From Escherichia coli (GTDB taxonomy: Bacteria; Pseudomonadota; Gammaproteobacteria; Enterobacterales; Enterobacteriaceae), in assembly GCF_048403405.1 (NCBI RefSeq), contig NZ_CP183129.1: a stretch of 64,000 bases of DNA, one strand, 5' to 3'. A program made the position numbers and the translations under genes. The notes under the pieces were generated by a model. The model saw nothing but the letters and a program-made list of their open reading frames with translations. It was not told where the DNA came from and did no database searches. Below are positions 17,801-33,445 of the stretch, piece by piece (position 1 is the first letter of the stretch; each line of letters starts with the position of its first letter).

Positions 17801-17880
17801 ATAAAAAAGGCGCTTCCCCATGCCGAGTAGCGCCTTTTTAATCAAGCATTTAGCTAACCTGAATTAGTTCATGCCGTATT
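17801..17880. repeat. attL: 80 bp direct repeat copy carrying a duplicate of the fis 3' end and terminator hairpin
   Basis: ataaaaaaggcgcttccccatgccgagtagcgcctttttaatcaagcatttagctaacctgaattagttcatgccgtatt, identical to 33086-33165. Confidence 0.9.
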
Positions 17881-18007: not shown

Positions 18008-18029
18008 TGTGCAGTCAGTGGTGCAGTCA
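18008..18029 (+). repeat. Candidate integrase arm-type site (left copy); internal tandem GTGCAGTCAG x2
   Basis: tgtgcagtcagtggtgcagtca also present at 33059-33080; sits 27 bp upstream of the int start codon. Confidence 0.55.
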
Positions 18030-18055
18030 GTTTTCAATATGAATTAAGGTTTTCT

Positions 18056-19279
18056 ATGGCTGGAGGAACGAACAAATTAAGCGATACATCGTTGCGTAAG
18101 ATGCTGGGGAGGGAAATCGATAGAGATAGATTTTATGCTGACGGTGATGGATTGAGTATCAAGGTGTCAAAAATTGGCGTTCTTACTTGGTATTTCTCTT
18201 TCCGGATTGGTGGGCGTGAATCGTATTCACAGCGTGTTAAGCTTGGAAACTACCCGGATCTTTCTCTGAAAGCTGCGCGCGAGAAACGTGAACAGTGTCG
18301 AGCATGGCTTGCTGAAGGTAAAAATCCAAAGCATCGGTTAAATGTGGCAATACATGAAACACTCAAACCAGTGACGGTAAAAGAGGCTCTGGATTACTGG
18401 ATCAGAGAATACGCCGTTTACAAGCGCACGAATGTTGATAAACACATTGAGCAACTGAGGAAGCATATTTTCCCCTATATAGGTGATTATCCGTTATCAA
18501 TGTGCGAAACCCGGCATTGGCTGGAGTGTTTCGCTAGAGTAAGGAATGACGCTCCAGTGGCAGCTGGTTATTTGCTGCAGATGTGTAAGCAGGCTCTGAA
18601 GTTTTGCCGCGTACATCGTTATGCGGTTAGCAATGCTCTGGATGACCTGACTATCGATGATGTTGGTAGAAAACAGAATAAGCGCGATAGGGAACACAGC
18701 AGTCAAGAGTTAGCAGATATTTGGCAGGAATGTTCAGGTAAGAAATTTAAACCATACTATTCATCGTTGTTGCGTCTATTGGTGGTGTTTGGATGTCGAA
18801 CCCAGGAGCTTCGGTTGTCACGTATTACAGAGTGGGATTTAAAGGATTGGATCTGGACAGTGCCTAAAGAACACAGCAAAGGCGGAGAGAAGATATTGCG
18901 CCCTATTCCAGTGGTAATACGCCCATTCATCCAACAGCTTATAGAGCAACACAAAAACTCAGGTCTTTTGTTGGGTGAAATAAAGAAACCAGAAGCTGTC
19001 AGCCAATGGGGGAGGATGATATATAAGCGTCTGGGGCATATTGAATCGTGGACACTTCACGACCTGCGCAGGACGTTTGCTACCACACTAAATAACATGG
19101 GGGTTGCACCACATGTTGTTGAACAGCTTCTCGGTCACACATTAGGTGGTGTAATGGCCATATACAATCGTAGCCAGTACTTACCAGAAAAACTAGACGC
19201 TCTAAATAAATGGATGGAACGGCTTGAGGTTATTTCTGGTCAGTATTCAAATGTAAAAATATTGAAGGTAGCGAAATGA
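18056..19279 (+). CDS. int: Tyrosine integrase (P4-like, N-terminal arm-binding domain)
   Basis: 407 aa from MAGGTNKLSD with RBS aagg; C-terminal catalytic residues in HDLRRTFAT and GHTLGGVMAIYNRSQY. Confidence 0.9.
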   Translation: MAGGTNKLSDTSLRKMLGREIDRDRFYADGDGLSIKVSKIGVLTWYFSFRIGGRESYSQRVKLGNYPDLSLKAAREKREQCRAWLAEGKNPKHRLNVAIHETLKPVTVKEALDYWIREYAVYKRTNVDKHIEQLRKHIFPYIGDYPLSMCETRHWLECFARVRNDAPVAAGYLLQMCKQALKFCRVHRYAVSNALDDLTIDDVGRKQNKRDREHSSQELADIWQECSGKKFKPYYSSLLRLLVVFGCRTQELRLSRITEWDLKDWIWTVPKEHSKGGEKILRPIPVVIRPFIQQLIEQHKNSGLLLGEIKKPEAVSQWGRMIYKRLGHIESWTLHDLRRTFATTLNNMGVAPHVVEQLLGHTLGGVMAIYNRSQYLPEKLDALNKWMERLEVISGQYSNVKILKVAK

Positions 19280-20102: not shown

Positions 20103-20324
20103 ATGAGCAAAGTTAAATCATCGCAAGACCAATTTGATCGCATCATTCGTGAGGAGGAATGCCGACGCCTTACCGGTATTTGCCGAACGACGCGTTATAT
20201 GATGGAAAGGAAAGGGGTGTTTCCAGCCCGTCGTCAGTTGGGGGCTCGTTCTGTCGGTTGGTTGCTGTCTGAGGTTAATGATTGGCTTGAACGTCAACCC
20301 AAAGCACAACTGAAATCGGCGTAA
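20103..20324 (+). CDS. alpA: AlpA-family transcriptional regulator (excisionase-like HTH)
   Basis: 73 aa from MSKVKSSQDQ with RBS gaggg; RLTGICRTTRYMMERKGVFPARRQLGARSVGWLLSEVNDWL matches the AlpA family pattern. Confidence 0.8.
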   Translation: MSKVKSSQDQFDRIIREEECRRLTGICRTTRYMMERKGVFPARRQLGARSVGWLLSEVNDWLERQPKAQLKSA

Positions 20325-20673: not shown

Positions 20674-20979
20674 CTATTCCTGCCCTTTGACCTTGCGTCG
20701 CTGGAGTTCTTCACGCGCGACGGTGACGAGTTGCCCGATCTCCTCGGCGGCTTTGACTCCGATTTTTTCAACCTGCGCTAGGGCATCGAGCGAAGAAACC
20801 AGGAGGTTTTCTCCGCTTCCTTCTGCCTGGCGGCGGGCGATTTCACCGCGCATGGCGGTTACTATGAATCCGGCGTTGCTTTCACCGTCCAGTTTTACGG
20901 ATTCCATGCCTTCAATAACATCATGCGGGATCCGAGCTGTCAGTGATTGTGATTTTGCGTTTTTTGAACCTGTAGCCAT
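20674..20979 (-). CDS. Putative small DNA-binding regulator, possibly ribbon-helix-helix
   Basis: 101 aa from MATGSKNAKS with strong RBS gagga; LTARIPHDVIEGMESVKLD resembles an RHH strand-helix; divergent from the downstream module. Confidence 0.5.
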   Translation of the reverse strand: MATGSKNAKSQSLTARIPHDVIEGMESVKLDGESNAGFIVTAMRGEIARRQAEGSGENLLVSSLDALAQVEKIGVKAAEEIGQLVTVAREELQRRKVKGQE

Positions 20980-20994
20980 CTGTAATCCTCTCAA

Positions 20995-21175
20995 TGAAAG
21001 TGTAAGACAATATACACATAAAAAGTCTTACATAAAAGCATTGACATGTAAGCCACCTATAAATAAAGTTACTTACACCTTGTTAATGCAAGGTGCAGAA
21101 ACGACGAAACCCCGCACTGTAGGAGCAGTAACGGGGCTTCTAACCACCAACGATAGCAAGATTATCGAGGCAGCT
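20995..21175. promoter_or_regulatory. Divergent promoter region with an array of TGTAAG/CTTACA half-sites
   Basis: TGTAAG at 21001 and 21047, CTTACA at 21027 and 21072, forming two inverted-repeat pairs; TTGACA at 21041. Confidence 0.45.
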
Positions 21176-21698: not shown

Positions 21699-21998
21699 AT
21701 GAGAACATATTTATCTGGCTTGACTGCCAGCGGTTATGCACACCCTAAAATTATCCCCGGCGCTATTTATCTGGATAAGAACGGTAACAGAGTAACGGTA
21801 AAAGAACTGATGTTTGACCGTGTTTATTTTATTCGTGATGGCTATTCATTTCATAGTTCGCTGAACGTGGAGATCTTTATTTGCAGATTCCGGCGGGAAA
21901 TCCCGCTTTCCAGAAATAACCATGTGTCATGTATGGATGTTGATAAAAAACTACAGGAACTGAAAAACATGATTGCCGCGTGGAGAGAGCAGAAATGA
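21699..21998 (+). CDS. Hypothetical protein (99 aa)
   Basis: ORF whose stop overlaps the primase start (ATGA coupling). Confidence 0.5.
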   Translation: MRTYLSGLTASGYAHPKIIPGAIYLDKNGNRVTVKELMFDRVYFIRDGYSFHSSLNVEIFICRFRREIPLSRNNHVSCMDVDKKLQELKNMIAAWREQK

Positions 21999-23812
21999 AA
22001 AAAGCGCCAAATTTAAAACACCAGCCGCGTGACAAAATGACGGAAGTCATCATTTTTGCGGGTAGTGATGCGTGGGCACATGCGAAGCAGTGGCAGGAAC
22101 AGGACGGGCGACTGGCAGGCGATAACGTGCCACCTGTCTGGCTTGGAGAGCAACAACTTGCCGAACTGGACAACCTGCAAATTGTACCGGACGGACGCTA
22201 TCGCGTGCGTCTCTATCAGGCGGGGTTATTGCGTCCGGGGCTTGTTAATACCATCGGGCAGAAACTGGCAGCGGCAGGTGTCAGGGATGCTGATTATTAC
22301 CCTGAAGGAATGCACAGCCAGAAACGGGAGAACTGGCGCGAATATCTGGAACGTGAGCGGGGAGAGCTGGCGGAAAAGAAAAAGGTAGTTGAACTGCCTG
22401 TAAAGAAAAAAGAGCGGGTAAAAGACGATAACGCTTCATCACTGGCGCTTAACCAGATGGGAGCAAGTCAACGCGGCGAAGTTCTCCTGGCACATTATGG
22501 CGGTGAACTGGCGATTCATGCCGACTCTGACACTGTTCACCATTACAACGGCGTTGTATGGGAGCCAGTACAGGATAAAGAATTACAGCGAGCTATGGCG
22601 CAGATTTTCATTGATGCGGAGATCAGCTATTCGCAGAACGCCATTAAATCGGCGGTCGATACCATGAAGTTAAGTTTGCCTGTAATGGGGAATACAGCCC
22701 GTAACCTGATTGGATTCAGTAACGGGGTATTTGATACCAGAACAGGTAATTTTCGGGAGCATAACAAAAACGACTGGTTGTTAATTGCCAGTGAATTACC
22801 TTTCAGCCCACCAGCAGAGGGGGAAACGCTGGCAACACATGCGCCGAATTTCTGGAAGTGGTTACGCCGTTCGGTGGCTGAGAATGACCGCAAGGCGGAT
22901 CGCGTACTGGCGGCATTATTCATGGTGCTGGCGAACCGGTACGACTGGCAGTTATTCATTGAGGTAACAGGTCCAGGGGGAAGTGGTAAAAGCGTGATGG
23001 CGGAGATTTGCACCATGCTGGCGGGTAAGGCTAATACAGTATCAGCAAGCATGAAGGCGCTGGAAGATGCAAGGGAACGTGCGTTAGTGGTTGGCTTTTC
23101 TCTGATTATCATGCCGGATATGACCCGCTACGCTGGTGATGGGGCAGGGATTAAGGCCATTACAGGCGGTGACAAGGTGGCAATTGACCCGAAACACAAA
23201 GCTCCCTACTCAACGCGTATTCCGGCAGTAGTGCTGGCGGTTAACAATAACGCCATGTCATTCAGTGACCGCAGCGGGGGGATCTCACGTCGTCGGGTGA
23301 TATTCAATTTTTCGGAAGTTGTACCGGAGAACGAACGTGATCCGATGCTGGCGGAAAAAATAGAAGGTGAGCTGGCGGTAGTGATTCGCCATCTGCTTAC
23401 ACGGTTTGCTAACCAGGACGAAGCCAGACGCCTGTTATATGAGCAGCAGAAATCTGAAGAAGCACTGGCGATAAAGCGAGAGGGGGATTCGCTGGTGGAC
23501 TTCTGCGGCTATCTCATGGCGTCGGTAATGTGTGATGGCCTGTTAGTGGGTAATGCTGAAATTGTGCCATTCAGCCCGCGCAGATATCTCTATCATGCCT
23601 ATCTGGCTTATATGAGGGCACATGGGTTTGGTAAACCTGTAACACTGACGCGCTTCGGTAAAGATATGCCGGGGGCAATGGCGGAATATGGCAGGGAGTA
23701 TATGAAACGGAAAACGAAGCACGGTTTGCGTTCAAACGTGACACTGACGGAGGAATCAGAAGACTGGATGCCATCATGTGTATCGGTCACTAATGACGAT
23801 AGCAAAAATTAA
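21995..23812 (+). CDS. Primase-helicase of the phage/plasmid P4-alpha type (PICI pri-rep)
   Basis: About 605 aa; Walker A GPGGSGKS in the C-terminal half; followed directly by the iteron array. Confidence 0.8.
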   Translation: MKKAPNLKHQPRDKMTEVIIFAGSDAWAHAKQWQEQDGRLAGDNVPPVWLGEQQLAELDNLQIVPDGRYRVRLYQAGLLRPGLVNTIGQKLAAAGVRDADYYPEGMHSQKRENWREYLERERGELAEKKKVVELPVKKKERVKDDNASSLALNQMGASQRGEVLLAHYGGELAIHADSDTVHHYNGVVWEPVQDKELQRAMAQIFIDAEISYSQNAIKSAVDTMKLSLPVMGNTARNLIGFSNGVFDTRTGNFREHNKNDWLLIASELPFSPPAEGETLATHAPNFWKWLRRSVAENDRKADRVLAALFMVLANRYDWQLFIEVTGPGGSGKSVMAEICTMLAGKANTVSASMKALEDARERALVVGFSLIIMPDMTRYAGDGAGIKAITGGDKVAIDPKHKAPYSTRIPAVVLAVNNNAMSFSDRSGGISRRRVIFNFSEVVPENERDPMLAEKIEGELAVVIRHLLTRFANQDEARRLLYEQQKSEEALAIKREGDSLVDFCGYLMASVMCDGLLVGNAEIVPFSPRRYLYHAYLAYMRAHGFGKPVTLTRFGKDMPGAMAEYGREYMKRKTKHGLRSNVTLTEESEDWMPSCVSVTNDDSKN

Positions 23813-24459: not shown

Positions 24460-24490
24460 TATATGGCCTGGCTCTTTGCCAGGCCATATA
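24460..24490. terminator. Bidirectional terminator: perfect 13 bp inverted repeat between convergent stop codons
   Basis: tatatggcctggc-tctttg-ccaggccatata located exactly between the stops at 24455-24457 (+) and 24492-24494 (-). Confidence 0.75.
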
Positions 24491-24491
24491 C

Positions 24492-25001
24492 TCAAAGCAT
24501 TGTTAACAAGGCGGACGCACCAGCACCAACGAGACTGGCTACCGTACTATTATTTAGTAAATCCTTAAGCAAATTTTTTGCCTGAGGATCTTGTGATTGA
24601 GAAACTTTTTCAACAAGTTCAGTTATGCTGAGATTTACAATAAGATTGTTATGCTCACCGAGTTGAACCTGTGTACCGGATATGTTACCAATGTTAAATG
24701 TATTTTGGCTAGATTGTTTTGGTTTATGTTCATTAGCAGTCAGATTCTCGACTTTTAATGTAAGCATGTGAGGGTGATTAGTACCAACATTGAGTGTACC
24801 TCCTGGTAAAAATGACATATCAATTACTTTTAATATTATTTCCCCCTTCCCTAGTTTTTGAGTGATTTCATCTCCAATATTAATATCTGGTTCTTCAGTA
24901 TAAGGGATTAGCACTTTTTTTTCAGCTGAGTTTCTTTTCCCCTTGTATTCAACTCCTGCGATTGTGAATTTTTCTGGATATGCCATGACGTTAAGATCCA
25001 T
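24492..25001 (-). CDS. Candidate system gene B: 169-aa protein with hydrophobic Gly/Ala-rich C-terminal tail
   Basis: ATG (rc of 24999-25001) with RBS gaggag 7 nt upstream; 27 bp after gene A; C-terminus STVASLVGAGASALLTML; shares a C-terminal module with gene A. Confidence 0.7.
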   Translation of the reverse strand: MDLNVMAYPEKFTIAGVEYKGKRNSAEKKVLIPYTEEPDINIGDEITQKLGKGEIILKVIDMSFLPGGTLNVGTNHPHMLTLKVENLTANEHKPKQSSQNTFNIGNISGTQVQLGEHNNLIVNLSITELVEKVSQSQDPQAKNLLKDLLNNSTVASLVGAGASALLTML

Positions 25002-25030: not shown

Positions 25031-25807
25031 TTAACTAGTAGATTTGAAAGTGTATTTTGTCTGTGTGTTAAGGTTTGATATTAGAGCTTCATAGTTTTCT
25101 TTACTCAGTAAGTTTTTTGAGTAGGCCTTCTTAAGAAGGTTTTTTGAGAGAGTAATAATTTCTTTTTCACCAGTTGATGCAATTTTTGAGAAGAACTCAG
25201 AGAGCTCTTGTATATTAATATTGTTATTTGTACCAAGTTGTACGTATTGGCTATTTACAGTAGCTATGTTGAATATGTTTTGTTTTGGATGCGTTTTTTT
25301 TAGCTTTTCAATTTCAGCATGTTCTATGATTTTTTGAGAGATACTTTCAATATAACCACTAACGTCTTTTTTTTCTGGGAAGGAAAACCCATCACCTCTT
25401 AATATTTTATCTGTTTCGGCCATTTCATAGTAAAGCCTGCGAATCATCACAAGTAATAGTAATTTAGCCTCCTCGATTGACTCCTCTATTGAGAATTGAC
25501 ATTCAATTGCTAACGCGGAGGTCTGCTCTAAAACAATTTCTGAGTTATTTTCAATGTAAGGATTGATAAAACCATTCCAAAAAATTTGAACGGGAGTACC
25601 TTTAAATGCCAAACCTTGATAGCATATTTCTGTTCCATCATATGCAGTAACTTTCATGGGGGGGCCTGCATTGAAAAATCGCCATCTATGAATCAGTTTG
25701 GTTAATCTTTCGTCAATCTCCCGAACTAATTTATAAGTCCTTTTGAACAATGGGGATGGTCGCATCCCAGGAACAGCAAGAATTTCTTTTGTCACTTGAA
25801 TCTCCAT
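25031..25807 (-). CDS. Candidate system gene A: 258-aa protein, no recognisable motifs
   Basis: First gene of the two-gene minus-strand operon; Lys/Asn/Ile-rich, AT-rich coding sequence; segment KQNIFNIATVNSQYVQLGTNNNINIQELSEFF is paralogous to gene B. Confidence 0.7.
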   Translation of the reverse strand: MEIQVTKEILAVPGMRPSPLFKRTYKLVREIDERLTKLIHRWRFFNAGPPMKVTAYDGTEICYQGLAFKGTPVQIFWNGFINPYIENNSEIVLEQTSALAIECQFSIEESIEEAKLLLLVMIRRLYYEMAETDKILRGDGFSFPEKKDVSGYIESISQKIIEHAEIEKLKKTHPKQNIFNIATVNSQYVQLGTNNNINIQELSEFFSKIASTGEKEIITLSKNLLKKAYSKNLLSKENYEALISNLNTQTKYTFKSTS

Positions 25808-26054
25808 AGTTTATCAGCATTTTTGTAAATTATTTGTGTGTTAACATTCAAGACTGTTCGTAACAAAAATACCTTATTTACATCAATTTTTTGATCCATA
25901 TCTTAAATAGTGGCACTCAGACGTGAGCCGCCACTGTTGCCGTCCGATCCCCTGCGCGATGCCGGGTTGATCTGCGAGATGCCGAGAGTGTCGGGCGGCG
26001 CTCCCTCCGTGTTGGTTTCACGTCCTGAATCTTAACCAATACGAGAAAACCTTC

Positions 26055-27224
26055 ATGAAGAAATTAATCGAGCTCCGCCAGCAAAAAAACGCCCTGAAAA
26101 ACCAGATGCGATCCCTGCTGGAAAAAGCCGACAGTGAAAACCGCAGCCTGAACGATGACGAGGGCAAACAGTTTGATGAACTGCGTGCAAAAGCTGATTC
26201 CCTCGATACAGACATTTCCCGCCTCGAGTCTGTGGCTGATGAAGAACGCAGCAAGCCAGGAACGGGCATCCAGAAAGTATCATCTGATGAATTGCGTAAC
26301 TACATCGTAACCGGAGATGTGCGATCTCTGTCCACCAGCACTGACAGCGGCAGGGATGGCGGATATACCGTAATTCCTGAGCTTGATCGCGAAGTCATGC
26401 GCCAGCTACAGGATGACAGTGTTATGCGCGTGATCGCGACCGTGAAGACTGCAAAATCAAATGAGTTTCAGAAACTGGTTTCCACTGGCGGCGCAACTGT
26501 AGGACGAGGCACAGAAGGCAGCGCACGCAGTGAAACCAACACCCCGAAAATTGAACGCGTAACCATCAAGCTGAACCCGATCTACGCCTACCCGAAAACC
26601 ACGCAGGAAATCCTAGATTTTTCAGAGGTGGATATTCTGGGCTGGTTATCCTCCGAAATTGCCGACACGTTCGCCAGCACCGAAGAGGATGATTTTGTTA
26701 ATGGCAACGGTAACGGCAAGCCGAAAGGCTTCATGGCTTACACCCGTGCGGCGACCAGTGACAAAACCCGCGCTTTTGGCACCATTGAAAAAATGGTAGC
26801 GGCAAGTGGAACCGCCATTACAGCGGACGAACTGATCGACATTCTCTACAAGCTGAAAGCGAAATACCGCAAAAATGCCGTCTGGGTGATGAACTCGGGC
26901 ACGGCAGGGACACTACAGAAGCTGAAAAATGAGAACGGCGATTATATCTGGCGCGACAGCCTTAAAGAAGGTGCGCCGGATATGTTGCTTGGTCGTCCTG
27001 TTTACTGCCTGGAGTCCATGCCGGACATCGGCGCAGGAAAAGCACCGCTAGCGGTTGGCGATTTCAGTCGTGGTTATTTCATCGTTGATCATGTAACAGG
27101 GATTCGCACCCGACCGGACAACATTACTGAACCCGGATTCTACAAGGTCCACACGGATAAATATCTGGGCGGTGGTGTGGTGGATTCAAACGCCATCAAA
27201 ATTCTGGAAATGAAAGCTGGCTAG
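26055..27224 (+). CDS. Major capsid protein, HK97 fold, with N-terminal coiled-coil delta/scaffold domain
   Basis: 389 aa; coiled-coil N-terminus then conserved MCP blocks (LLGRPVYCLESMP, GDFSRGYFIVDHVTGIRTRPD, NAIKILEMKAG). Confidence 0.85.
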   Translation: MKKLIELRQQKNALKNQMRSLLEKADSENRSLNDDEGKQFDELRAKADSLDTDISRLESVADEERSKPGTGIQKVSSDELRNYIVTGDVRSLSTSTDSGRDGGYTVIPELDREVMRQLQDDSVMRVIATVKTAKSNEFQKLVSTGGATVGRGTEGSARSETNTPKIERVTIKLNPIYAYPKTTQEILDFSEVDILGWLSSEIADTFASTEEDDFVNGNGNGKPKGFMAYTRAATSDKTRAFGTIEKMVAASGTAITADELIDILYKLKAKYRKNAVWVMNSGTAGTLQKLKNENGDYIWRDSLKEGAPDMLLGRPVYCLESMPDIGAGKAPLAVGDFSRGYFIVDHVTGIRTRPDNITEPGFYKVHTDKYLGGGVVDSNAIKILEMKAG

Positions 27225-27278
27225 TCATGAGTAAGGAGGAGGCTGCGGCCTCCTTTTTCAGCTTTATGGAGTACACCG

Positions 27279-27839
27279 ATGAAAAACACCGATTTTGAAA
27301 TCCGCACATCTGAACTGACCGCCAGCAATAAAAAGCTGGTGGGGTATGCCGTTCGCTGGAACAGCCTTTCAGAAATTATCTGGGACGAATTCCGCGAACA
27401 GTTCACGCCGGGGGCTTTTGCTGACTATCTGGCGGCGGGTAATGATGTGCGCTGCCTGTATGAGCATGACTATACCCAACTGCTGGGGCGCACCAAATCC
27501 GGCACTCTGGTACTGACTGAGGATAACACCGGGTTACGTTTTGAACTGACACCGCCGGATACCCAGCTTGGAAAAGATGTGCTTACGCTGGTGGAGCGTG
27601 GCGACATTACAGGAATGAGCTTTGGTTTTCGCGCATTATGCGAGGAGTGGAGTATCGCGCAAAAACCGTATTTGCGTACCGTAACCGCCGCTGAACTCCG
27701 TGAAATCACAATAACGTCGATGCCTGCTTATCCAGAATCTGGCGTGGAGATTGCCCACCGTTCGTTGTTTGCACAGCACCCTGAATTATGCCCGACAGGA
27801 AATAATCGTCATCGCTGGTCTGAGCTGGCGGGGTTGTGA
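27279..27839 (+). CDS. Prohead maturation protease, HK97 family
   Basis: 186 aa; pattern FEIR...GYAVRWN...GAF...LYEHD...LGRT...GMSFGFR...MPAYPE typical of HK97 prohead protease. Confidence 0.8.
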   Translation: MKNTDFEIRTSELTASNKKLVGYAVRWNSLSEIIWDEFREQFTPGAFADYLAAGNDVRCLYEHDYTQLLGRTKSGTLVLTEDNTGLRFELTPPDTQLGKDVLTLVERGDITGMSFGFRALCEEWSIAQKPYLRTVTAAELREITITSMPAYPESGVEIAHRSLFAQHPELCPTGNNRHRWSELAGL

Positions 27840-27840
27840 T

Positions 27841-29055
27841 ATGTGGTGGCCTTTTAGTCGTAAAAAAAGCGAGCAGCGTAACCTGTCCATTGATGATTTT
27901 CTGGCGCTGTCCGGCGTACCGAATACCGGATCCGGAGAATATGTTTCTGCCGGGACGGCTGAATCATTGCCTGCAGTGATGAATGCGGTTTCTGTCATCG
28001 CTGAGGCGGTGGCCACGATGCCGTGTTATCTGTATCTGGTACGTAATGACAAGGGCAGGGAGGCGCGGGAATGGCTGGACAGTCACCCGGTAGATATTCT
28101 GCTGAATGAGCAGCCTAATTCGTGCCAGACACCTTACCAGTTTAAACGCACAATGATGCGTCACTGCCTGCTGAACGGTAACGCCTATGCGGTTATTGAG
28201 TGGGGGCAGGACGGGCAGCCAAAATCACTTCATCCTTATGCGCCGGGGTGTGTTGTACCGGAACGCACAGGCGCACACAAATACCGCTATACCATCACCG
28301 AACCCTATACAGGAACGGTGCGCACGTATTTACAGGAAGAAGTTCTGCATCTCCGCTATGCCTCGGATGATGGCTTTCTGGGGCGCTCCCCCGTCACGAT
28401 TTGCCGTGAGGCACTTGGGCTTGGCCTTGCTCAACAGCGCCACGGAGCCAGCATTATGAAAGATGGCATGATGGCGGCAGGGATTATCACGTCAGGCGAA
28501 TGGCTGGACGGCGTGAAAGGTAAACAGGCATTGGATGCTCTGGAACGCTACAAGGGGGCGAAAAATGCCGGAAAAACGCCAATCCTTGAAGGGGGCATGG
28601 ATTACAGGCAACTGGGAATGAGTAACCAGGATGCGGAATGGCTGGCCTCCCGTCGCTTCTCCATTGAAGACATCGCCCGCATGTTCAACGTATCGCCTAT
28701 TTTTCTGCAGGAATACAGCAACAGCACCTACAGCAATTTCAGCGAGGCAAGCCGCGCGTTTCTGACCATGACAATGCGCCCGTGGCTGGCGAACTTCGAA
28801 CAGCAAATCAAGGCCGCTTTGCTGGTGGCTTCTCCCGTACCTGGTACCCGTTATCTGGTTGAGTTTGATTCAGCCGATTTATTACGCGCCACACCCACCG
28901 AACGTTATGCCACGTATGAGAAAGGGATTAAGAACGGGATCATGAATCCGAACGAAGCCCGTGAGCGTGAGGGTATGCCGCCGCGTGAAGGTGGTGATGA
29001 GTTCAGCCAGGCATGGAAACAGACTGTGGAAATTAAAGGGAGAAAAGATGAGTGA
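27841..29055 (+). CDS. Portal protein, HK97 family
   Basis: 404 aa from MWWPFSRKK, starting 2 nt after the protease stop; the track ORF's upstream extension overlaps the protease. Confidence 0.8.
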   Translation: MWWPFSRKKSEQRNLSIDDFLALSGVPNTGSGEYVSAGTAESLPAVMNAVSVIAEAVATMPCYLYLVRNDKGREAREWLDSHPVDILLNEQPNSCQTPYQFKRTMMRHCLLNGNAYAVIEWGQDGQPKSLHPYAPGCVVPERTGAHKYRYTITEPYTGTVRTYLQEEVLHLRYASDDGFLGRSPVTICREALGLGLAQQRHGASIMKDGMMAAGIITSGEWLDGVKGKQALDALERYKGAKNAGKTPILEGGMDYRQLGMSNQDAEWLASRRFSIEDIARMFNVSPIFLQEYSNSTYSNFSEASRAFLTMTMRPWLANFEQQIKAALLVASPVPGTRYLVEFDSADLLRATPTERYATYEKGIKNGIMNPNEAREREGMPPREGGDEFSQAWKQTVEIKGRKDE

Positions 29056-29350
29056 AGCCAGAATTACACCTGATGAAGTCAGGGCACATCTTCGACTTGA
29101 TGATGATTTATCCGGTGAAGGCGAACTTCTGAAAATGTATACCGATGCGGCGCTGGAAGCCTGCCAGAAGCATATCGGGAAACGTTTTGAAGACGGGCTG
29201 GAATTTACCCCGGCAATGCGTGTTGGTTGCCTGATGTACATCGCTTTCCTGTACGAGAACCGGGAAGCGGTTTCACCAGTGGAGCACTCGGAACTGCCTA
29301 TGGCTATTTCTGCGCTCTGGTCAGTTTATCGTGACGTAGGGGTGTACTGA
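29048..29350 (+). CDS. Head-tail connector (gp6-like) protein
   Basis: 100 aa, MSEARITPDEVRAHLRLDDDLSGEGELLKMYTDAALEACQKHIGKRF; start overlaps the portal stop. Confidence 0.7.
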   Translation: MSEARITPDEVRAHLRLDDDLSGEGELLKMYTDAALEACQKHIGKRFEDGLEFTPAMRVGCLMYIAFLYENREAVSPVEHSELPMAISALWSVYRDVGVY

Positions 29351-29790
29351 TGCCGTGGCAACCATTAAGGCGATGCACTGAGCCTGGCTGTAATAAGCGC
29401 GTGAAGTCCGGCAAGTGTGAAGAGCACAGGCGGGCTGCATGGCGTGCAGAGGATGCCAGACGGGGACACCGCCGCGCGCGCGGGTATTCCCGACAGTGGG
29501 ACAAATACCGCGCCCTGTACCTGAGCAAAAACCCGTTATGCGTGCGTTGTCTGGCTAAGGGGATTTATACGCCAGCTCTTGTGGTGGATCACATCATTCC
29601 CATCAATGGCGGCGGTGATGTTCTCTTCTGGCCTGAGTGGAATCACCAGGCATTGTGCCAGACGTGCCACAACCGTAAGACGACACGGGAAGATCCAGCC
29701 ACGAAAGCAAACCGTAAAGCGGGCATGTATCACGAGCAGGAAGAACGGGCGGCACACCGTAACGACTGGATGTATGGCGATGATGACTGA
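29350..29790 (+). CDS. HNH endonuclease (cos-packaging accessory nuclease)
   Basis: 146 aa; Cys-rich HNH core CVRCLAKG...VVDHIIPINGGGD...NHQALCQTCHNRKT. Confidence 0.85.
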   Translation: MPWQPLRRCTEPGCNKRVKSGKCEEHRRAAWRAEDARRGHRRARGYSRQWDKYRALYLSKNPLCVRCLAKGIYTPALVVDHIIPINGGGDVLFWPEWNHQALCQTCHNRKTTREDPATKANRKAGMYHEQEERAAHRNDWMYGDDD

Positions 29791-29960
29791 ACAGGAGCAA
29801 ACCAGGCTGATACGTGGACTGATAAGGCAGCGTGACACATGGAAGACACAGGAGACAGAGCACAAAGCCAACAGGACAGGGCGCACAAAACTCACCACAG
29901 CGAAGCGATTAACCGACCGTGACCGCGAGGTCATGGAATGTTTTCGCAATCGCTGGTGAG

Positions 29961-30026
29961 GCCGTCAGAGGGGGTGGGGGTGGTTTTCAGGACGAAACCG
30001 TCCCTGCCGGACACCGACCGCCCCCT
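29961..30026. other. Candidate cos/packaging site between HNH and terS
   Basis: G-tract gagggggtgggggtgg and complementary C-tract ccgccccctc flanking palindrome ggacgaaaccgtcc, in the 290 bp gap upstream of terS. Confidence 0.35.
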
Positions 30027-30078
30027 CAAATTTTTGTGCACGGTAATTTTTTTGAAAATAATTGGGCGAAAAAAGAAC

Positions 30079-30435
30079 ATGGCAAGACCACCAAAAGCCC
30101 CCGCTTACCTGGATGAAATCGCGGTCAGGCAGTGGAAGGAAAAATCGCGCCAGCTTTCCGGGCGGGAAGACCTTACCCCCGCCGACTGGAGCAATCTGGA
30201 ACTGTATTGTGTTAACTACTCCATATACCGCAAAGCCGTCGAAGACCTTGCGACGCGCGGGTTCAGCATTGTTAACAGTCAGGGCAGCGAGAGCAGAAAC
30301 CCCGCACTGAGCGCAAAGGCTGACGCAGAAAGAATAATGATCAAAATGGCTTCTTTGCTGGGTTTTGACCCGGTAAGCCGTCGCAGAAATCCACCGGAAA
30401 CAGAGGAAGAGGACGAACTTGACCGCCTGGCATGA
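30079..30435 (+). CDS. Terminase small subunit (P27-family-like)
   Basis: 118 aa from MARPPKAPAYLDEIAVRQWKEK; directly upstream of and overlapping terL; acidic C-terminus. Confidence 0.75.
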   Translation: MARPPKAPAYLDEIAVRQWKEKSRQLSGREDLTPADWSNLELYCVNYSIYRKAVEDLATRGFSIVNSQGSESRNPALSAKADAERIMIKMASLLGFDPVSRRRNPPETEEEDELDRLA

Positions 30436-32080
30436 GTACGCAGAAGGCGTAAAAAACGGCAAAATTACGGCCTGTAAACGACTGAAACAGGCCGTTAAAC
30501 GGTATTTTTCTGACCTTGAAAACTCCCTTTACACGTTCGATCCGGAGGTCGTGGAGCGGTTTATTGCCTTTTCCCGGGTGTGTCCGCACGTAAAAGGCGC
30601 AATGCGCGGTAGTCCCATTGAACTGGAGCCGTGGCAGCAGTTCGCCTTTGCCTGCATCCTGGGCTTTAAGGTTAAGGCCACCGGACGGCGCAAATACACC
30701 AGCGCATTCATTGAAGTACCGCGAAAAAATGCCAAATCCACGGTCGCCGCTATCCTGGCTAACTGGTTTCTGGTTATGGAAAACGGGCAGCAGGATATTT
30801 ACACCGCCGCCGTGAGTCGTGATCAGGCGCGGATCGTGTTTGATGATGCGCGTCAGATGTGCCTTTTATCCCGACCGTTACGAAAGCGGGTAAATATTCA
30901 GGCACACAAGGTGATACACCCGAAAACTAACAGCCTGTTAAAGCCACTGGCAGCAAAAGCGGCAACCATTGAAGGTACAAATCCGAGTCTTGCCATTGTG
31001 GATGAATATCACCTGCACCCTGACAACGGGGTTTATTCCGCACTTGAGCTGGGGATGGGGGCGCGTCCGGAGGGGCTGTTATTTGCCATCACCACATCGG
31101 GGAGCAACGTTGTTTCAGCCTGTAAACAACACTATGACTATTGCTGTCAGATACTGGATGGTGAAGAGATGAACGAATCCATGTTCGTTCTGATTTACGA
31201 GCTGGATGATGAAAGCGAGGTTGACGATCCGGCCATGTGGATAAAGGCGAATCCAAATATCGATGTTTCCGTCGATCGTGAAAAACTGGCCTCAACCATC
31301 CAGAAAGCGCGGGGTATTCCGTCGCAGTGGGTGGAAATGCTCACCAAGCGATTCAATATCTGGTGTCAGGGGGCTACGCCGTGGATGGGTAACGGTGCAT
31401 GGGCGGAGTGCGCCGGAACGTTCGCGGAGGCGGATTTATACGGGCAGGAGTGCTACGCGGGACTGGACTTATCATCAACCAGCGATATTTCCAGCGTGTG
31501 CTATGCCTTTCCGGTCGGTAAAAAGATTATGCTGGTTTCCCGTCACTATCTGCCGGAATTTCAGCTACAGAACCCCGCCAATAAAAACCGCGCCATCTAT
31601 CGCCAGTGGGTAAAGGCGGGCTGGATACGCACAACACCGGGTGACTGCATTGATTATGACCGTATCCGTGATGACATCATGGCGGATGCAGAGAATTTCA
31701 ATATCAGGCTGGTGGGCTTCGATACATGGAACGCCACGCACCTGAGGACGCAGCTACAGGGGGCAGGATTTGAGGTGGAGCCGTTCCCGCAAACATACCT
31801 TCGTTTCAGTCCGGCGGCGAAATCGTTCGAAGTTTTTGTTAACCGGAAGGTGATTGTGCATCGTGGTGATCCGGTGCTGGCCTGGTCAATGAGTAATGTT
31901 GTGATGCAGAGTGACGCGAACGCCAATATCAAGCCGAACAAGAAAAAATCATCCAACAAGATAGACCCGAGCGTTGCGGCGCTGATGGCGTTTGGCACAT
32001 TCCAGGCAGAGCATGAGGAATTTGCATTTGATATGAGCGACAGCCACAAAGAGCGACTTGCGGCGTTTGATGGGGTATGA
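30419..32080 (+). CDS. Terminase large subunit
   Basis: 553 aa; ATPase N-terminal domain and nuclease C-terminal domain typical of TerL. Confidence 0.85.
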   Translation: MTAWHEYAEGVKNGKITACKRLKQAVKRYFSDLENSLYTFDPEVVERFIAFSRVCPHVKGAMRGSPIELEPWQQFAFACILGFKVKATGRRKYTSAFIEVPRKNAKSTVAAILANWFLVMENGQQDIYTAAVSRDQARIVFDDARQMCLLSRPLRKRVNIQAHKVIHPKTNSLLKPLAAKAATIEGTNPSLAIVDEYHLHPDNGVYSALELGMGARPEGLLFAITTSGSNVVSACKQHYDYCCQILDGEEMNESMFVLIYELDDESEVDDPAMWIKANPNIDVSVDREKLASTIQKARGIPSQWVEMLTKRFNIWCQGATPWMGNGAWAECAGTFAEADLYGQECYAGLDLSSTSDISSVCYAFPVGKKIMLVSRHYLPEFQLQNPANKNRAIYRQWVKAGWIRTTPGDCIDYDRIRDDIMADAENFNIRLVGFDTWNATHLRTQLQGAGFEVEPFPQTYLRFSPAAKSFEVFVNRKVIVHRGDPVLAWSMSNVVMQSDANANIKPNKKKSSNKIDPSVAALMAFGTFQAEHEEFAFDMSDSHKERLAAFDGV

Positions 32081-32367
32081 CGAGAATGACTGAAACTGAT
32101 CTACTAAAAATAATTCGCCGCATTACCGGAATCAGTCAGCAGCCTGACGAACAGGCTACACAGCCGGACAGCGTGATAGCCGAAAATTACGCGCGTGTGG
32201 TGGCTGAGGTGATGCGCCGTGACGGTATTGAGCTTAACGGCGTGGATATGCGCAACATACGAACCAGAGTCCTTGAGTTGCTGGCATACCGTCGCCGTTC
32301 TCAACAACGGAGGGAGAGCGCGAAAAATACTTACCAGTGGAAGAAGCCGGAACGACTGCGGCGGTAA
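32077..32367 (+). CDS. Hypothetical protein (96 aa), translationally coupled to terL
   Basis: ATGA overlap with the terL stop; basic C-terminus; possibly a head-completion protein. Confidence 0.5.
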   Translation: MTRMTETDLLKIIRRITGISQQPDEQATQPDSVIAENYARVVAEVMRRDGIELNGVDMRNIRTRVLELLAYRRRSQQRRESAKNTYQWKKPERLRR

Positions 32368-32408
32368 CTTGCTGATATTCCCGATAACGCAAAATTGCGT
32401 TGGCTGGC
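32366..32408 (+). repeat. Copy 1 of a 43 bp imperfect direct repeat in the right-end non-coding region, followed by palindrome TGCAAATTTGCA (32414-32425)
   Basis: taacttgctgatattcccgataacgcaaaattgcgttggctgg versus copy 2 at 32669-32711, about 35 of 43 identical by eye. Confidence 0.6.
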
Positions 32409-32668
32409 ATAGTGCAAATTTGCACGATGACCTAACCCATTGACTTTTCTTCAATCCTCAATTTTGAGGAGGCCGGAAGATAAAAAACTGTCAAAACTTG
32501 TCATGCAAAACGTTACCAGCACGGCTATTGATTTATTCGGCCCCTGCAACTGCTCCCAGAATGGTGGGGATCTGAAATCCGACCCTGAAAAAGTGCGCAA
32601 AAGTGGTACGCAAAAATTAGCGTCCAGCCACAGCCACCAGCTAGACAGAACGCCCAGAGCATTGTCAG

Positions 32669-32711
32669 TAACTGGTTGATATTCCCGACAGCCCCAAAAT
32701 GGGTTGGCTGG
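32669..32711 (+). repeat. Copy 2 of the 43 bp imperfect direct repeat, followed by palindrome TTGCAGATCTGCAA (32720-32733)
   Basis: taactggttgatattcccgacagccccaaaatgggttggctgg. Confidence 0.6.
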
Positions 32712-33058: not shown

Positions 33059-33080
33059 TGTGCAGTCAGTGGTGCAGTCA
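33059..33080 (+). repeat. Candidate integrase arm-type site (right copy), 5 bp from attR
   Basis: tgtgcagtcagtggtgcagtca identical to 18008-18029. Confidence 0.55.
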
Positions 33081-33085
33081 TTTTA

Positions 33086-33165
33086 ATAAAAAAGGCGCTT
33101 CCCCATGCCGAGTAGCGCCTTTTTAATCAAGCATTTAGCTAACCTGAATTAGTTCATGCCGTATT
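33086..33165. repeat. attR: 80 bp direct repeat overlapping the last 17 nt of fis and its terminator
   Basis: Identical to 17801-17880; the fis stop codon (33149-33151) lies inside the repeat. Confidence 0.9.
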
Positions 33166-33445
33166 TTTTCAATTTTTTACGCAGCGTACCACGGTTGATG
33201 CCCATCATCAGCGCAGCACGGGTCTGGTTACCACGGGTGTATTGCATCACCATGTCCAACAGGGGCTGTTCTACTTCAGCCAGTACCAGCTCATAGAGGT
33301 CATTCACATCCTGACCGTTCAGTTGAGCAAAATAGTTCTTCAGTGCCTGTTTAACCGAGTCACGCAGGGGTTTTTGGGTTACCTGATCCTGAGAGTTAAC
33401 GGTAGAAACGGTCAGTACGTCAGAATTTACGCGTTGTTCGAACAT
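33149..33445 (-). CDS. fis: Nucleoid-associated protein / global regulator Fis
   Basis: 98 aa [39 protein letters not shown]...[17 protein letters not shown]. Confidence 0.97.

What the first reader, a model, noticed from the sequence alone, without database searches (positions are those of the whole stretch)
26055..29350. Head module gene order is capsid, protease, portal, connector
HK97-like phages usually encode portal, protease and capsid in that order, whereas here the major capsid gene comes first and the portal follows the protease. The compact reordered module with a coiled-coil delta domain fused to the capsid protein fits a satellite-specific small-capsid assembly pathway.
Basis: partly seen in the sequence, partly recalled or inferred. 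Interest (0 to 1): 0.35.

Follow-up and report, generated by a model that had tools for sequence, protein, structure and literature searches.

The report
Known cf-PICI satellite head module
The capsid-protease-portal-connector order is real, but it is the published hallmark of capsid-forming phage satellites (cf-PICIs) of enterobacteria, so this is an ordinary member of a known family and not a new assembly pathway.

Summary
On the + strand, window 26055-29350 encodes an HK97-fold major capsid protein, an S78 prohead protease, a portal and a gp6-like head-tail adaptor, followed by HNH, TerS and TerL. These genes sit in a 15,285-bp island bounded by a perfect 80-nt direct repeat at the 3' end of fis. 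The island carries int, alpA and a D5-type primase and has no recognisable tail or lysis genes, so it is a capsid-forming PICI (cf-PICI).

Alqurainy et al. state this exact order (capsid-protease-portal-head connectors, then hnh-terS-terL) as the conserved layout of proteobacterial cf-PICIs. The capsid is 63% identical to the EcCIEDL933 capsid, which has been solved as a T=4 shell (PDB 9gyi).

All 80 close relatives in IMG/VR and 533 of 5,426 complete E. coli genomes keep the order. All 10 bona fide phages I fetched, including HK97 and the helper HK106, are portal-first.

- The delta domain is also present in the phage relatives, so it is not satellite-specific.
- Firmicutes cf-PICIs are reported with other gene orders, so capsid-first order is not needed for the cf-PICI lifestyle.

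Two side findings: this element lacks the head-closure gene, and a conserved terminator-like hairpin directly follows the capsid gene.

The parts
17801..17880 (.). attL: left copy of the perfect 80-nt direct repeat bounding the island
   Evidence: repeat family D1, 100% identity, spacing 15,285 bp
33086..33165 (.). attR: right copy of the 80-nt repeat; overlaps the last 17 nt of fis (33149-33445, minus strand)
18056..19279 (+). tyrosine integrase
   Evidence: Arm-DNA-bind_3, Phage_int_M and Phage_integrase domains; RefSeq annotation
20103..20324 (+). AlpA-family regulator
   Evidence: PF05930, E 3e-14
21995..23812 (+). D5-type primase/helicase (replication module)
   Evidence: D5_N, DUF5906 and Pox_D5 domains
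25824..25938 (+). Putative packaging-operon control region: conserved box TGTAAATTATTTGT (25824-25837), sigma-70-like hexamers (25877-25904) and a leader hairpin (25906-25938)
   Evidence: the box and hairpin are conserved across E. coli and Klebsiella cf-PICIs; the hairpin stem shows compensatory changes between clades; fold z = -3.5. Function is inferred.
26055..27224 (+). Major capsid protein, HK97 fold, with N-terminal delta domain (about codons 1-92, 26055-26330)
   Evidence: PF05065 on residues 102-385. PDB 9gyi at E 8e-155; 63-64% identity to the EcCIEDL933-type capsid. N-terminal helices.
27235..27258 (+). GC-rich hairpin followed by a U-run directly after the capsid stop codon (intrinsic-terminator-like)
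   Evidence: -21.4 kcal/mol, z = -3.1; every one of the 25 distinct spacer sequences from 86 cf-PICI loci folds into a hairpin plus T-run, with stems that differ between clades; consensus fold.
27279..27839 (+). Prohead serine protease (S78)
   Evidence: PF04586, E 7e-46
27841..29055 (+). Portal protein
   Evidence: PF04860, E 2e-92
29048..29350 (+). Head-tail adaptor (gp6-like, Ad1); the only neck gene present, with no head-closure gene beside it
   Evidence: PF05135 and phrog_40; no Hc homologue anywhere in the window.
29350..29790 (+). HNH endonuclease (packaging accessory)
   Evidence: PF01844
29774..29959 (+). Conserved 61-aa protein of unknown function
   Evidence: phrog_3373-class family of unknown function (phrog_3173, E 5e-26); 75% identity to the protein at the same position in the EcCIEDL933-type island.
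29960..30078 (.). Inferred cos region between the HNH/61-aa genes and terS
   Evidence: Inference only. The cos site of phiP27 is annotated between HNH and terS. The linear record of vB_KppS-Ant starts 22 nt before terS and ends just after the HNH-side small ORF.
30079..30435 (+). Small terminase, P27 family
   Evidence: PF05119
30419..32080 (+). Large terminase
   Evidence: TerL_ATPase and TerL_nuclease domains
32086..32367 (+). Conserved 93-aa protein of unknown function; last gene of the operon
   Evidence: phrog_1561; 75% identity to the EcCIEDL933-type counterpart

Best explanation
Window 26055-29350 is the morphogenesis half of the packaging operon of a capsid-forming phage-inducible chromosomal island (cf-PICI) of the proteobacterial, EcCIEDL933-like clade. 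The island is integrated at the 3' end of fis.

The mechanism below is inferred by homology to EcCIEDL933, for which each step was shown experimentally. A helper phage triggers AlpA-dependent induction. The island excises and replicates. The capsid protein co-assembles with the portal and the S78 protease into a small (T=4) procapsid, using its N-terminal delta domain as a built-in scaffold. The protease then removes the delta domain. HNH, TerS and TerL cut at cos and package one ~15.3-kb genome. The adaptor caps the portal, and a helper-phage tail is attached.

The capsid-first order is a conserved lineage trait of this clade. It is not specific to this locus and has not been shown to determine capsid size.

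My own inference on how the order could work: the capsid gene is promoter-proximal and is followed at once by a conserved terminator-like hairpin. That arrangement would give an excess of capsid mRNA over the downstream portal, adaptor and terminase messages.
For: 1. Island anatomy. It is 15,285 bp between perfect 80-nt repeats. It carries int, alpA, a D5 primase, capsid, protease, portal, adaptor, HNH, TerS and TerL on one strand. No ORF was recognised as a tail or lysis gene by Pfam, PHROGs or RefSeq annotation.
2. Relatedness to the prototype. Against an O157:H7 EcCIEDL933-type island the proteins are 63% (capsid), 62% (protease), 81% (portal), 56% (connector), 84% (HNH), 88% (TerS) and 93% (TerL) identical, in the same order. 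The EcCIEDL933 capsid in the PDB (9gyi) matches at E 8e-155 over the full length. The best true-phage capsid is 37% identical.
3. Literature. The order 'capsid-protease-portal-head connectors' followed by 'hnh-terS-terL' is stated as conserved in proteobacterial cf-PICIs. All genes of the EcCIEDL933 packaging module are required for its transfer, and only helper tails are needed. Its capsid is T=4, 47.5 nm, with the N-terminus cleaved at residue 93.
4. Distribution. 80 of 80 IMG/VR relatives keep the order. 533 of 5,426 complete E. coli genomes hold the module, and 529 of them have a place covering at least 80% of the query.
5. Selection. dN/dS is 0.07-0.25 for the head and packaging genes compared.
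6. Post-capsid hairpin. It is present in all 86 cf-PICI loci examined, with different stem sequences in different clades. HK97 and HK106 also have an annotated terminator right after their capsid gene.
Against: No experiment exists for this particular element.

It lacks the head-closure (Hc1) gene that EcCIEDL933, SM107, vB_KppS-Ant and Pmp8 carry between portal and adaptor. Its particle completion may therefore differ from the prototype.

The expression-polarity role of the hairpin is inference only. If AlpA acts as an antiterminator, the hairpin may be bypassed.

The AlphaFold model was poor (mean pLDDT 59), so the T=4 assignment rests on sequence homology alone.
Confidence: 0.9

Rival explanations
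1. The capsid-first order is an adaptive, satellite-specific device that directs small (T=4) capsid assembly.
For: The order is restricted to cf-PICI-type elements in everything I sampled: 80 of 80 IMG/VR relatives and 0 of 10 true phages. The prototype makes T=4 capsids. In alignment A1 the cf-PICI delta domain is about 11 residues shorter than in the closest phage relatives.
Against: The two Firmicutes cf-PICI groups arose independently and are reported with other gene orders. Capsid size in HK97-fold systems is a property of the proteins, and the authors of the structure attribute it tentatively to a loop in the capsid protein, not to gene order. The delta domain is shared with phage relatives. 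No mechanism connects gene order to triangulation number.
Confidence: 0.07
2. It is a decaying prophage remnant that lost its tail and lysis genes and was scrambled by rearrangement.
For: It has phage-like head and terminase genes without tail genes. One neck gene (head closure) is missing compared with relatives.
Against: All ORFs are intact and under purifying selection (dN/dS 0.07-0.25). The att repeats are perfect. The same architecture and a ~15-kb size recur in hundreds of genomes and in induced or virome records: vB_KppS-Ant at 16.5 kb, Pmp8 at 15.3 kb, and IMG/VR contigs of 15-17 kb. The capsid and TerL are far from any phage (37% or less for the capsid).
Confidence: 0.03

Closest known systems
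EcCIEDL933, the prototype capsid-forming PICI of E. coli O157:H7 (Alqurainy et al., bioRxiv 10.1101/2022.09.08.507074; He et al., bioRxiv 10.1101/2025.02.11.637232; PDB 9gyi)
   Same: The island plan is the same: int-alpA-primase, then capsid-protease-portal-neck-HNH-small ORF-TerS-TerL-small ORF. The size is similar (15.3 versus 15.4-15.5 kb). Proteins are 56-93% identical. Both have a delta-domain capsid, and both have a hairpin after the capsid gene.
   Different: The attachment site differs: fis 3' end here, versus between roxA and phoQ in the O157 island. The replication protein differs: D5 primase versus a DUF927 protein. The accessory genes differ. This element has no head-closure (Hc1) gene, and its adaptor is only 56% identical.
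cf-PICI of E. coli SM107 (NZ_CP130667.1) and similar IMG/VR contigs
   Same: Capsid, protease, portal and TerL are 98-99% identical, TerS is 100% and HNH is 96%, all in the same order.
   Different: SM107 carries a two-gene neck cassette (head closure plus adaptor) where the window has a single adaptor gene. The breakpoints lie at about portal codon 398 and at the HNH start. The integration site and replication module also differ.
HK97-like phage head modules (HK97, helper HK106, ST64B, phiP27)
   Same: The protein families match: HK97-fold capsid with delta domain, S78 protease, portal, gp6-like adaptor, and HNH plus P27-type TerS plus TerL cos packaging. A terminator follows the capsid gene in both.
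   Different: The phage order is terS-terL-portal-protease-capsid-adaptor-closure-tail. Capsid identity is only 16-37%. The phages carry tail and lysis genes and have 38-44-kb genomes.
Rhodobacter capsulatus gene transfer agent capsid (PDB 6tb9, 6tba)
   Same: It is the second-best solved-structure match to the mature capsid domain (E 9e-55). It also forms a small capsid made by a non-phage element.
   Different: GTAs package random host DNA. The window element, unlike a GTA, carries int, alpA, a replication module and an HNH-cos packaging system. The match covers only residues 94-388, so it gives no evidence of a homologous delta domain.

Membership tests
cf-PICI (capsid-forming PICI), proteobacterial clade | Small chromosomal island (~14-16 kb) bounded by att repeats, with an integrase at one end | tested here: met
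   15,285 bp between perfect 80-nt repeats. The integrase has Arm-DNA-bind_3 and Phage_integrase domains.
cf-PICI (capsid-forming PICI), proteobacterial clade | PICI-type regulation and replication module (alpA regulator, primase-replicase) | tested here: met
   AlpA PF05930 and D5-type primase domains.
cf-PICI (capsid-forming PICI), proteobacterial clade | Own capsid, prohead protease, portal, HNH, TerS and TerL | tested here: met
   All six are detected above the Pfam gathering thresholds and are 62-93% identical to their EcCIEDL933-type counterparts.
cf-PICI (capsid-forming PICI), proteobacterial clade | [quoted passage not shown] | tested here: not met
   Only the gp6-like Ad1 gene is present. 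No PF05521/phrog_25 head-closure homologue exists anywhere in the 64-kb window. This gives 10 of 11 components, which corresponds to SatelliteFinder 'Type B'. Type B is still classed as cfPICI (459 of 969 elements; PMC10085698).
cf-PICI (capsid-forming PICI), proteobacterial clade | No tail genes and no holin or lysis genes (forbidden components) | tested here: met
   No ORF in 17881-33085 matches a tail or lysis family in Pfam or PHROGs or is annotated as one in RefSeq. The remaining ORFs are hypothetical or of unknown function.
cf-PICI (capsid-forming PICI), proteobacterial clade | Conserved order: capsid-protease-portal-connector(s), then hnh-terS-terL | tested here: met
   compared with the statement. 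The order is the same in the EcCIEDL933-type island, SM107, vB_KppS-Ant, Pmp8 and 80 IMG/VR loci.
cf-PICI (capsid-forming PICI), proteobacterial clade | Capsid and TerL group with cf-PICIs and are distant from phages | tested here: met
   By identity, not by a tree. The capsid is 60-77% identical to cf-PICI-type records and at most 37% to any true phage. PDB 9gyi matches at E 8e-155.
cf-PICI (capsid-forming PICI), proteobacterial clade | Helper-phage-dependent induction, self-made small capsids, transfer with stolen tails | not testable with these tools
   Shown only for EcCIEDL933 and a few other islands.
HK97-like temperate phage (ordinary prophage) | Canonical order terS-terL-portal-protease-capsid, followed by neck, tail and lysis genes, in a ~40-kb genome | tested here: not met
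   The order is different, there are no tail or lysis genes, and the element is 15.3 kb.

The most novel reading that the evidence does not exclude
The single-adaptor variant seen here has no head-closure gene. It accounts for 27 of the 80 close IMG/VR relatives, and its neck cassette is swapped cleanly between the portal C-terminus and HNH. This variant may be a functional sub-type that takes the head-closure protein from the helper phage as well as the tail. If so, some cf-PICIs steal the neck and the tail, which would narrow or change their helper range. Separately, the capsid-first order together with the conserved post-capsid terminator may be an expression-ratio device.
Probability: 0.3. 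Interest if true: 0.35.

Novelty: already known. Interest (0 to 1): 0.12.

Why it matters
As a finding it mainly confirms annotation. This locus is a cf-PICI, a satellite family that spreads DNA between enterobacterial species using borrowed phage tails. The module is present in about 10% of complete E. coli genomes (533 of 5,426). The gene order is a reliable marker that separates these satellites from HK97-like prophages, but it has been published. The only parts that might repay work are the missing head-closure gene, which asks how DNA-filled tail-less capsids are sealed and which tails they can accept, and the conserved hairpin after the capsid gene.

Tried and rejected
1. Structure prediction of the capsid from a 12-sequence alignment gave mean pLDDT 59 and a low-confidence core. 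I did not run a fold search on it. I relied on the sequence match to the solved EcCIEDL933 capsid instead.

2. Rfam found nothing in the island at E up to 0.1, so the conserved leader hairpin and the post-capsid hairpin belong to no curated RNA family.

3. PADLOC and Pfam found nothing for the two low-GC minus-strand cargo genes upstream of the capsid.

4. I looked for a relocated head-closure gene anywhere in the 64-kb window by tblastn with five Hc queries at E up to 10. Only noise came back.

5. I asked whether the window's adaptor was recently acquired from a phage. Its best true-phage match is only 40% identical over 65% of the protein (SfII), so there is no evidence for that.

6. The consensus fold of the post-capsid hairpin gave little formal covariation support, because MAFFT mis-registers stems of different sequence. 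The per-sequence folds are the better evidence.

7. Supplementary tables of the cf-PICI paper, which list attB sites, are not held. I could not check whether the fis-site element was listed there.

8. I considered a GTA-like reading because of the RcGTA capsid match. I rejected it because the element has an integrase, AlpA, a replication module and an HNH-cos terminase system.
Full report
**What is at the coordinates**

ORF listing, Pfam and PHROGs show four tightly packed + strand genes:

| Gene | Coordinates | Evidence |
|---|---|---|
| Major capsid protein | 26055-27224 | PF05065, E 5e-71 |
| Prohead protease, S78 | 27279-27839 | PF04586, E 7e-46 |
| Portal | 27841-29055 | PF04860, E 2e-92 |
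| gp6-like head-tail adaptor | 29048-29350 | PF05135; phrog_40 Ad1, E 2e-28 |

These are followed on the same strand by HNH (29350-29790), a 61-aa ORF, a P27-family TerS (30079-30435), TerL (30419-32080) and a 93-aa ORF. RefSeq annotation of a 100% identical island in E. coli TUM1226 gives the same gene calls. The stated order capsid, protease, portal, connector is therefore real.

**Context**

The window is E. coli chromosome. The module lies in a 15,285-bp insertion between yhdJ and fis, bounded by a perfect 80-nt direct repeat (17801-17880 and 33086-33165). The right copy overlaps the 3' end of fis. The insertion starts with a tyrosine integrase, an AlpA-family regulator, small ORFs (Icd-like, DUF4222) and a D5-type primase. 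No ORF in it is recognisable as a tail or lysis gene.

**Identification**

This is the anatomy of a capsid-forming PICI (cf-PICI). Against the island of an O157:H7 strain that corresponds to the prototype EcCIEDL933, the proteins are 63% (capsid), 62% (protease), 81% (portal), 56% (connector), 84% (HNH), 88% (TerS) and 93% (TerL) identical, in the same order. The best solved-structure match of the capsid is PDB 9gyi, the 385-residue major head protein, at E 8e-155 and aligned from residue 1.

The closest records in the phage collection are satellite-sized or fragmentary. They are vB_KppS-Ant (16.5 kb), Pasteurella Pmp8 (15.3 kb), a 3.8-kb Salmonella fragment and the terminal segment of a 106-kb Klebsiella record, and all of them are capsid-first. 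The best bona fide phage capsids (ST64B, SfI, SfII, phiP27, Pseudomonas phages) are 33-37% identical.

**Is the order unusual, and is it new?**

All ten true phages I fetched run (HNH)-terS-terL-portal-protease-capsid-adaptor-closure-tail. They are HK97, the experimentally proven helper HK106, ST64B, phiP27, VW-6S, D14E, ST101-KPC2phi6.3, Bacteriophage sp. 103231, vB_EcoS-733R4 and an unannotated faecal contig. Three streptococcal phages that appear in both the capsid and portal tables are also portal-first by coordinates.

Conversely, all 80 IMG/VR loci retrieved with the capsid keep capsid > protease > portal. In addition, 533 of 5,426 complete E. coli genomes hold the module, and 529 of them have a place covering at least 80% of the query.

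The order is already in the literature. [quoted passage not shown] SatelliteFinder likewise reports that the organisation of cfPICI core genes is very conserved.

**The interpretation**

The satellite and small-capsid part holds by homology. EcCIEDL933 makes its own T=4, 47.5-nm capsids, its capsid protein is cleaved at residue 93, and only helper tails are required. The element here is 15.3 kb, which is the size those capsids hold.

Two parts of the interpretation do not hold.

First, the delta domain is not satellite-specific. In alignment A1, every phage relative, including HK97 and HK106, has an N-terminal extension of about 90-105 residues before the conserved mature N-terminus. tblastn alignments to ST64B-type capsids also start at query residue 2. 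The domain is helical in the model (helices 2-27, 34-66, 77-86), although the model overall is poor.

Second, nothing connects gene order with capsid size. The two Firmicutes cf-PICI groups arose independently and are reported with portal-protease-capsid first or HNH-terS-terL first. The authors of the structure tentatively attribute size to a capsid loop.

**How it most likely works**

Shown for the prototype and inferred here: AlpA-dependent induction by a helper, excision, replication, assembly of a T=4 procapsid from delta-domain capsid protein with portal and protease, removal of the delta domain, cos cleavage and packaging by HNH, TerS and TerL, capping by the adaptor, and joining to a helper tail.

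All head and packaging genes compared are under purifying selection (dN/dS 0.07-0.25 against three relatives at different distances). This argues against a decaying remnant.

My own addition concerns the 54-nt capsid-protease spacer. It holds a GC-rich hairpin followed by a U-run (27235-27258; -21.4 kcal/mol, z = -3.1). Every one of the 86 cf-PICI loci I examined has such a hairpin in its 54-60-nt spacer. The stem sequences differ between the window, Klebsiella-type, EcCIEDL933-type and Pasteurella clades. HK97 and HK106 also have an annotated terminator directly after their capsid gene. With the capsid gene promoter-proximal, partial termination there would give excess capsid message relative to portal, adaptor and terminase. 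This is an inference, not a result.

Upstream of the capsid gene there is a conserved box TGTAAATTATTTGT (25824-25837), a sigma-70-like site (25877-25904) and a leader hairpin (25906-25938, z = -3.5). The inner stem of that hairpin changes in a compensatory way between clades: CTCA/TGAG, CCAG/CTGG and CTCC/GGAG. No Rfam family matches it.

**A real difference from the prototype**

EcCIEDL933-type islands, SM107, vB_KppS-Ant and Pmp8 all carry a head-closure gene (PF05521, phrog_25 Hc1) between portal and adaptor. The window has none there, nor anywhere else in its 64 kb.

Against SM107 the capsid, protease, portal and TerL are 98-99% identical, TerS is 100% and HNH is 96%. The adaptor, however, is only 56% identical, and similarity breaks at about portal codon 398 and resumes at the HNH start. 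A two-gene neck cassette has therefore been exchanged for a one-gene cassette. Of the 80 IMG/VR relatives, 27 share the single-gene state, including three with divergent capsids.

cf-PICI Hc proteins are 50-68% identical to phage Hc proteins (HK97 gp7 58%), far closer than the capsids are. The window's adaptor has no close phage relative.

In SatelliteFinder terms this element has 10 of 11 core components, which is 'Type B'. That class is common (459 of 969 elements), so the variant has been counted before, though I found no functional discussion of it. One possibility is that such elements borrow the helper's closure protein together with its tail. This is untested.

**Verdict**

The feature is already known. 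Interest is low. The missing head-closure gene and the conserved post-capsid hairpin are the only points that might deserve follow-up.

Noticed in passing
window 29048-29350 (and the absence of a gene between 29055 and 29048): The island has only one neck gene (Ad1 adaptor). The head-closure Hc1 gene found between portal and adaptor in EcCIEDL933-type, SM107, vB_KppS-Ant and Pmp8 islands is missing here and anywhere else in the 64-kb window. 27 of 80 IMG/VR relatives share this state. The swap breakpoints are at about portal codon 398 and the HNH start.
   Followed up: partly
window 27235-27258: A terminator-like GC hairpin plus U-run sits directly after the capsid stop codon. It is present in all 86 cf-PICI loci examined, with clade-specific stem sequences. 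HK97 and HK106 have an annotated terminator at the equivalent place after their capsid gene.
   Followed up: partly
window 25824-25938: The control region upstream of the capsid gene is conserved. It has the box TGTAAATTATTTGT, a sigma-70-like site, and a leader hairpin whose inner stem shows compensatory changes between cf-PICI clades. There is no Rfam match.
   Followed up: partly
window 24492-25001 and 25031-25807 (minus strand): Two low-GC (about 36%) cargo genes are transcribed opposite to the rest of the island, followed by a strong 13-bp-stem terminator at 24460-24490. PHROG 5789 (unknown function) matches them; there is no Pfam or PADLOC hit. They may be an accessory or defence cargo.
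   Followed up: partly
alignment A1, window capsid residues about 229-251: The 'connector loop' (EcCIEDL933 residues 227-248) was proposed as the T=4 determinant. It is present at full length in the closest phage capsids (ST64B, phiP27, VW-6S, D14E, KPC2phi6.3; genomes of 38-44 kb) and is short only in HK97 and HK106. The loop alone therefore may not explain the small capsid. The cf-PICI delta domain is about 11 residues shorter than in those phages.
   Followed up: no
window 18008-18033 and 33059-33084; also 32364-32407 and 32668-32711: Short direct repeats lie just inside the two island ends. One is TGTGCAGTCAGTGGTGCAGTCAGTTT, itself a tandem of GTGCAGTCAGT. There is also a 44-nt repeat pair in the gene-free 0.7 kb before attR. 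These are plausibly integrase arm-type or excision-factor binding sites.
   Followed up: no
L004 (PQ569648.1, Klebsiella phage P12620-1, record 90271-106503): The last ~16 kb of this 106-kb 'phage' record is a complete cf-PICI-like segment (terS-terL ... capsid-protease-portal-connector-HNH). It is probably an assembly chimera of a phage and a co-packaged satellite.
   Followed up: no
L025, L037, L040 (IMG/VR), about 20876-21166: Three Hc-less relatives have a head-closure homologue (63% identical to SM107 Hc) about 8 kb downstream of TerL, at the edge of the fetched locus. It probably belongs to a neighbouring prophage or to a second satellite.
   Followed up: no
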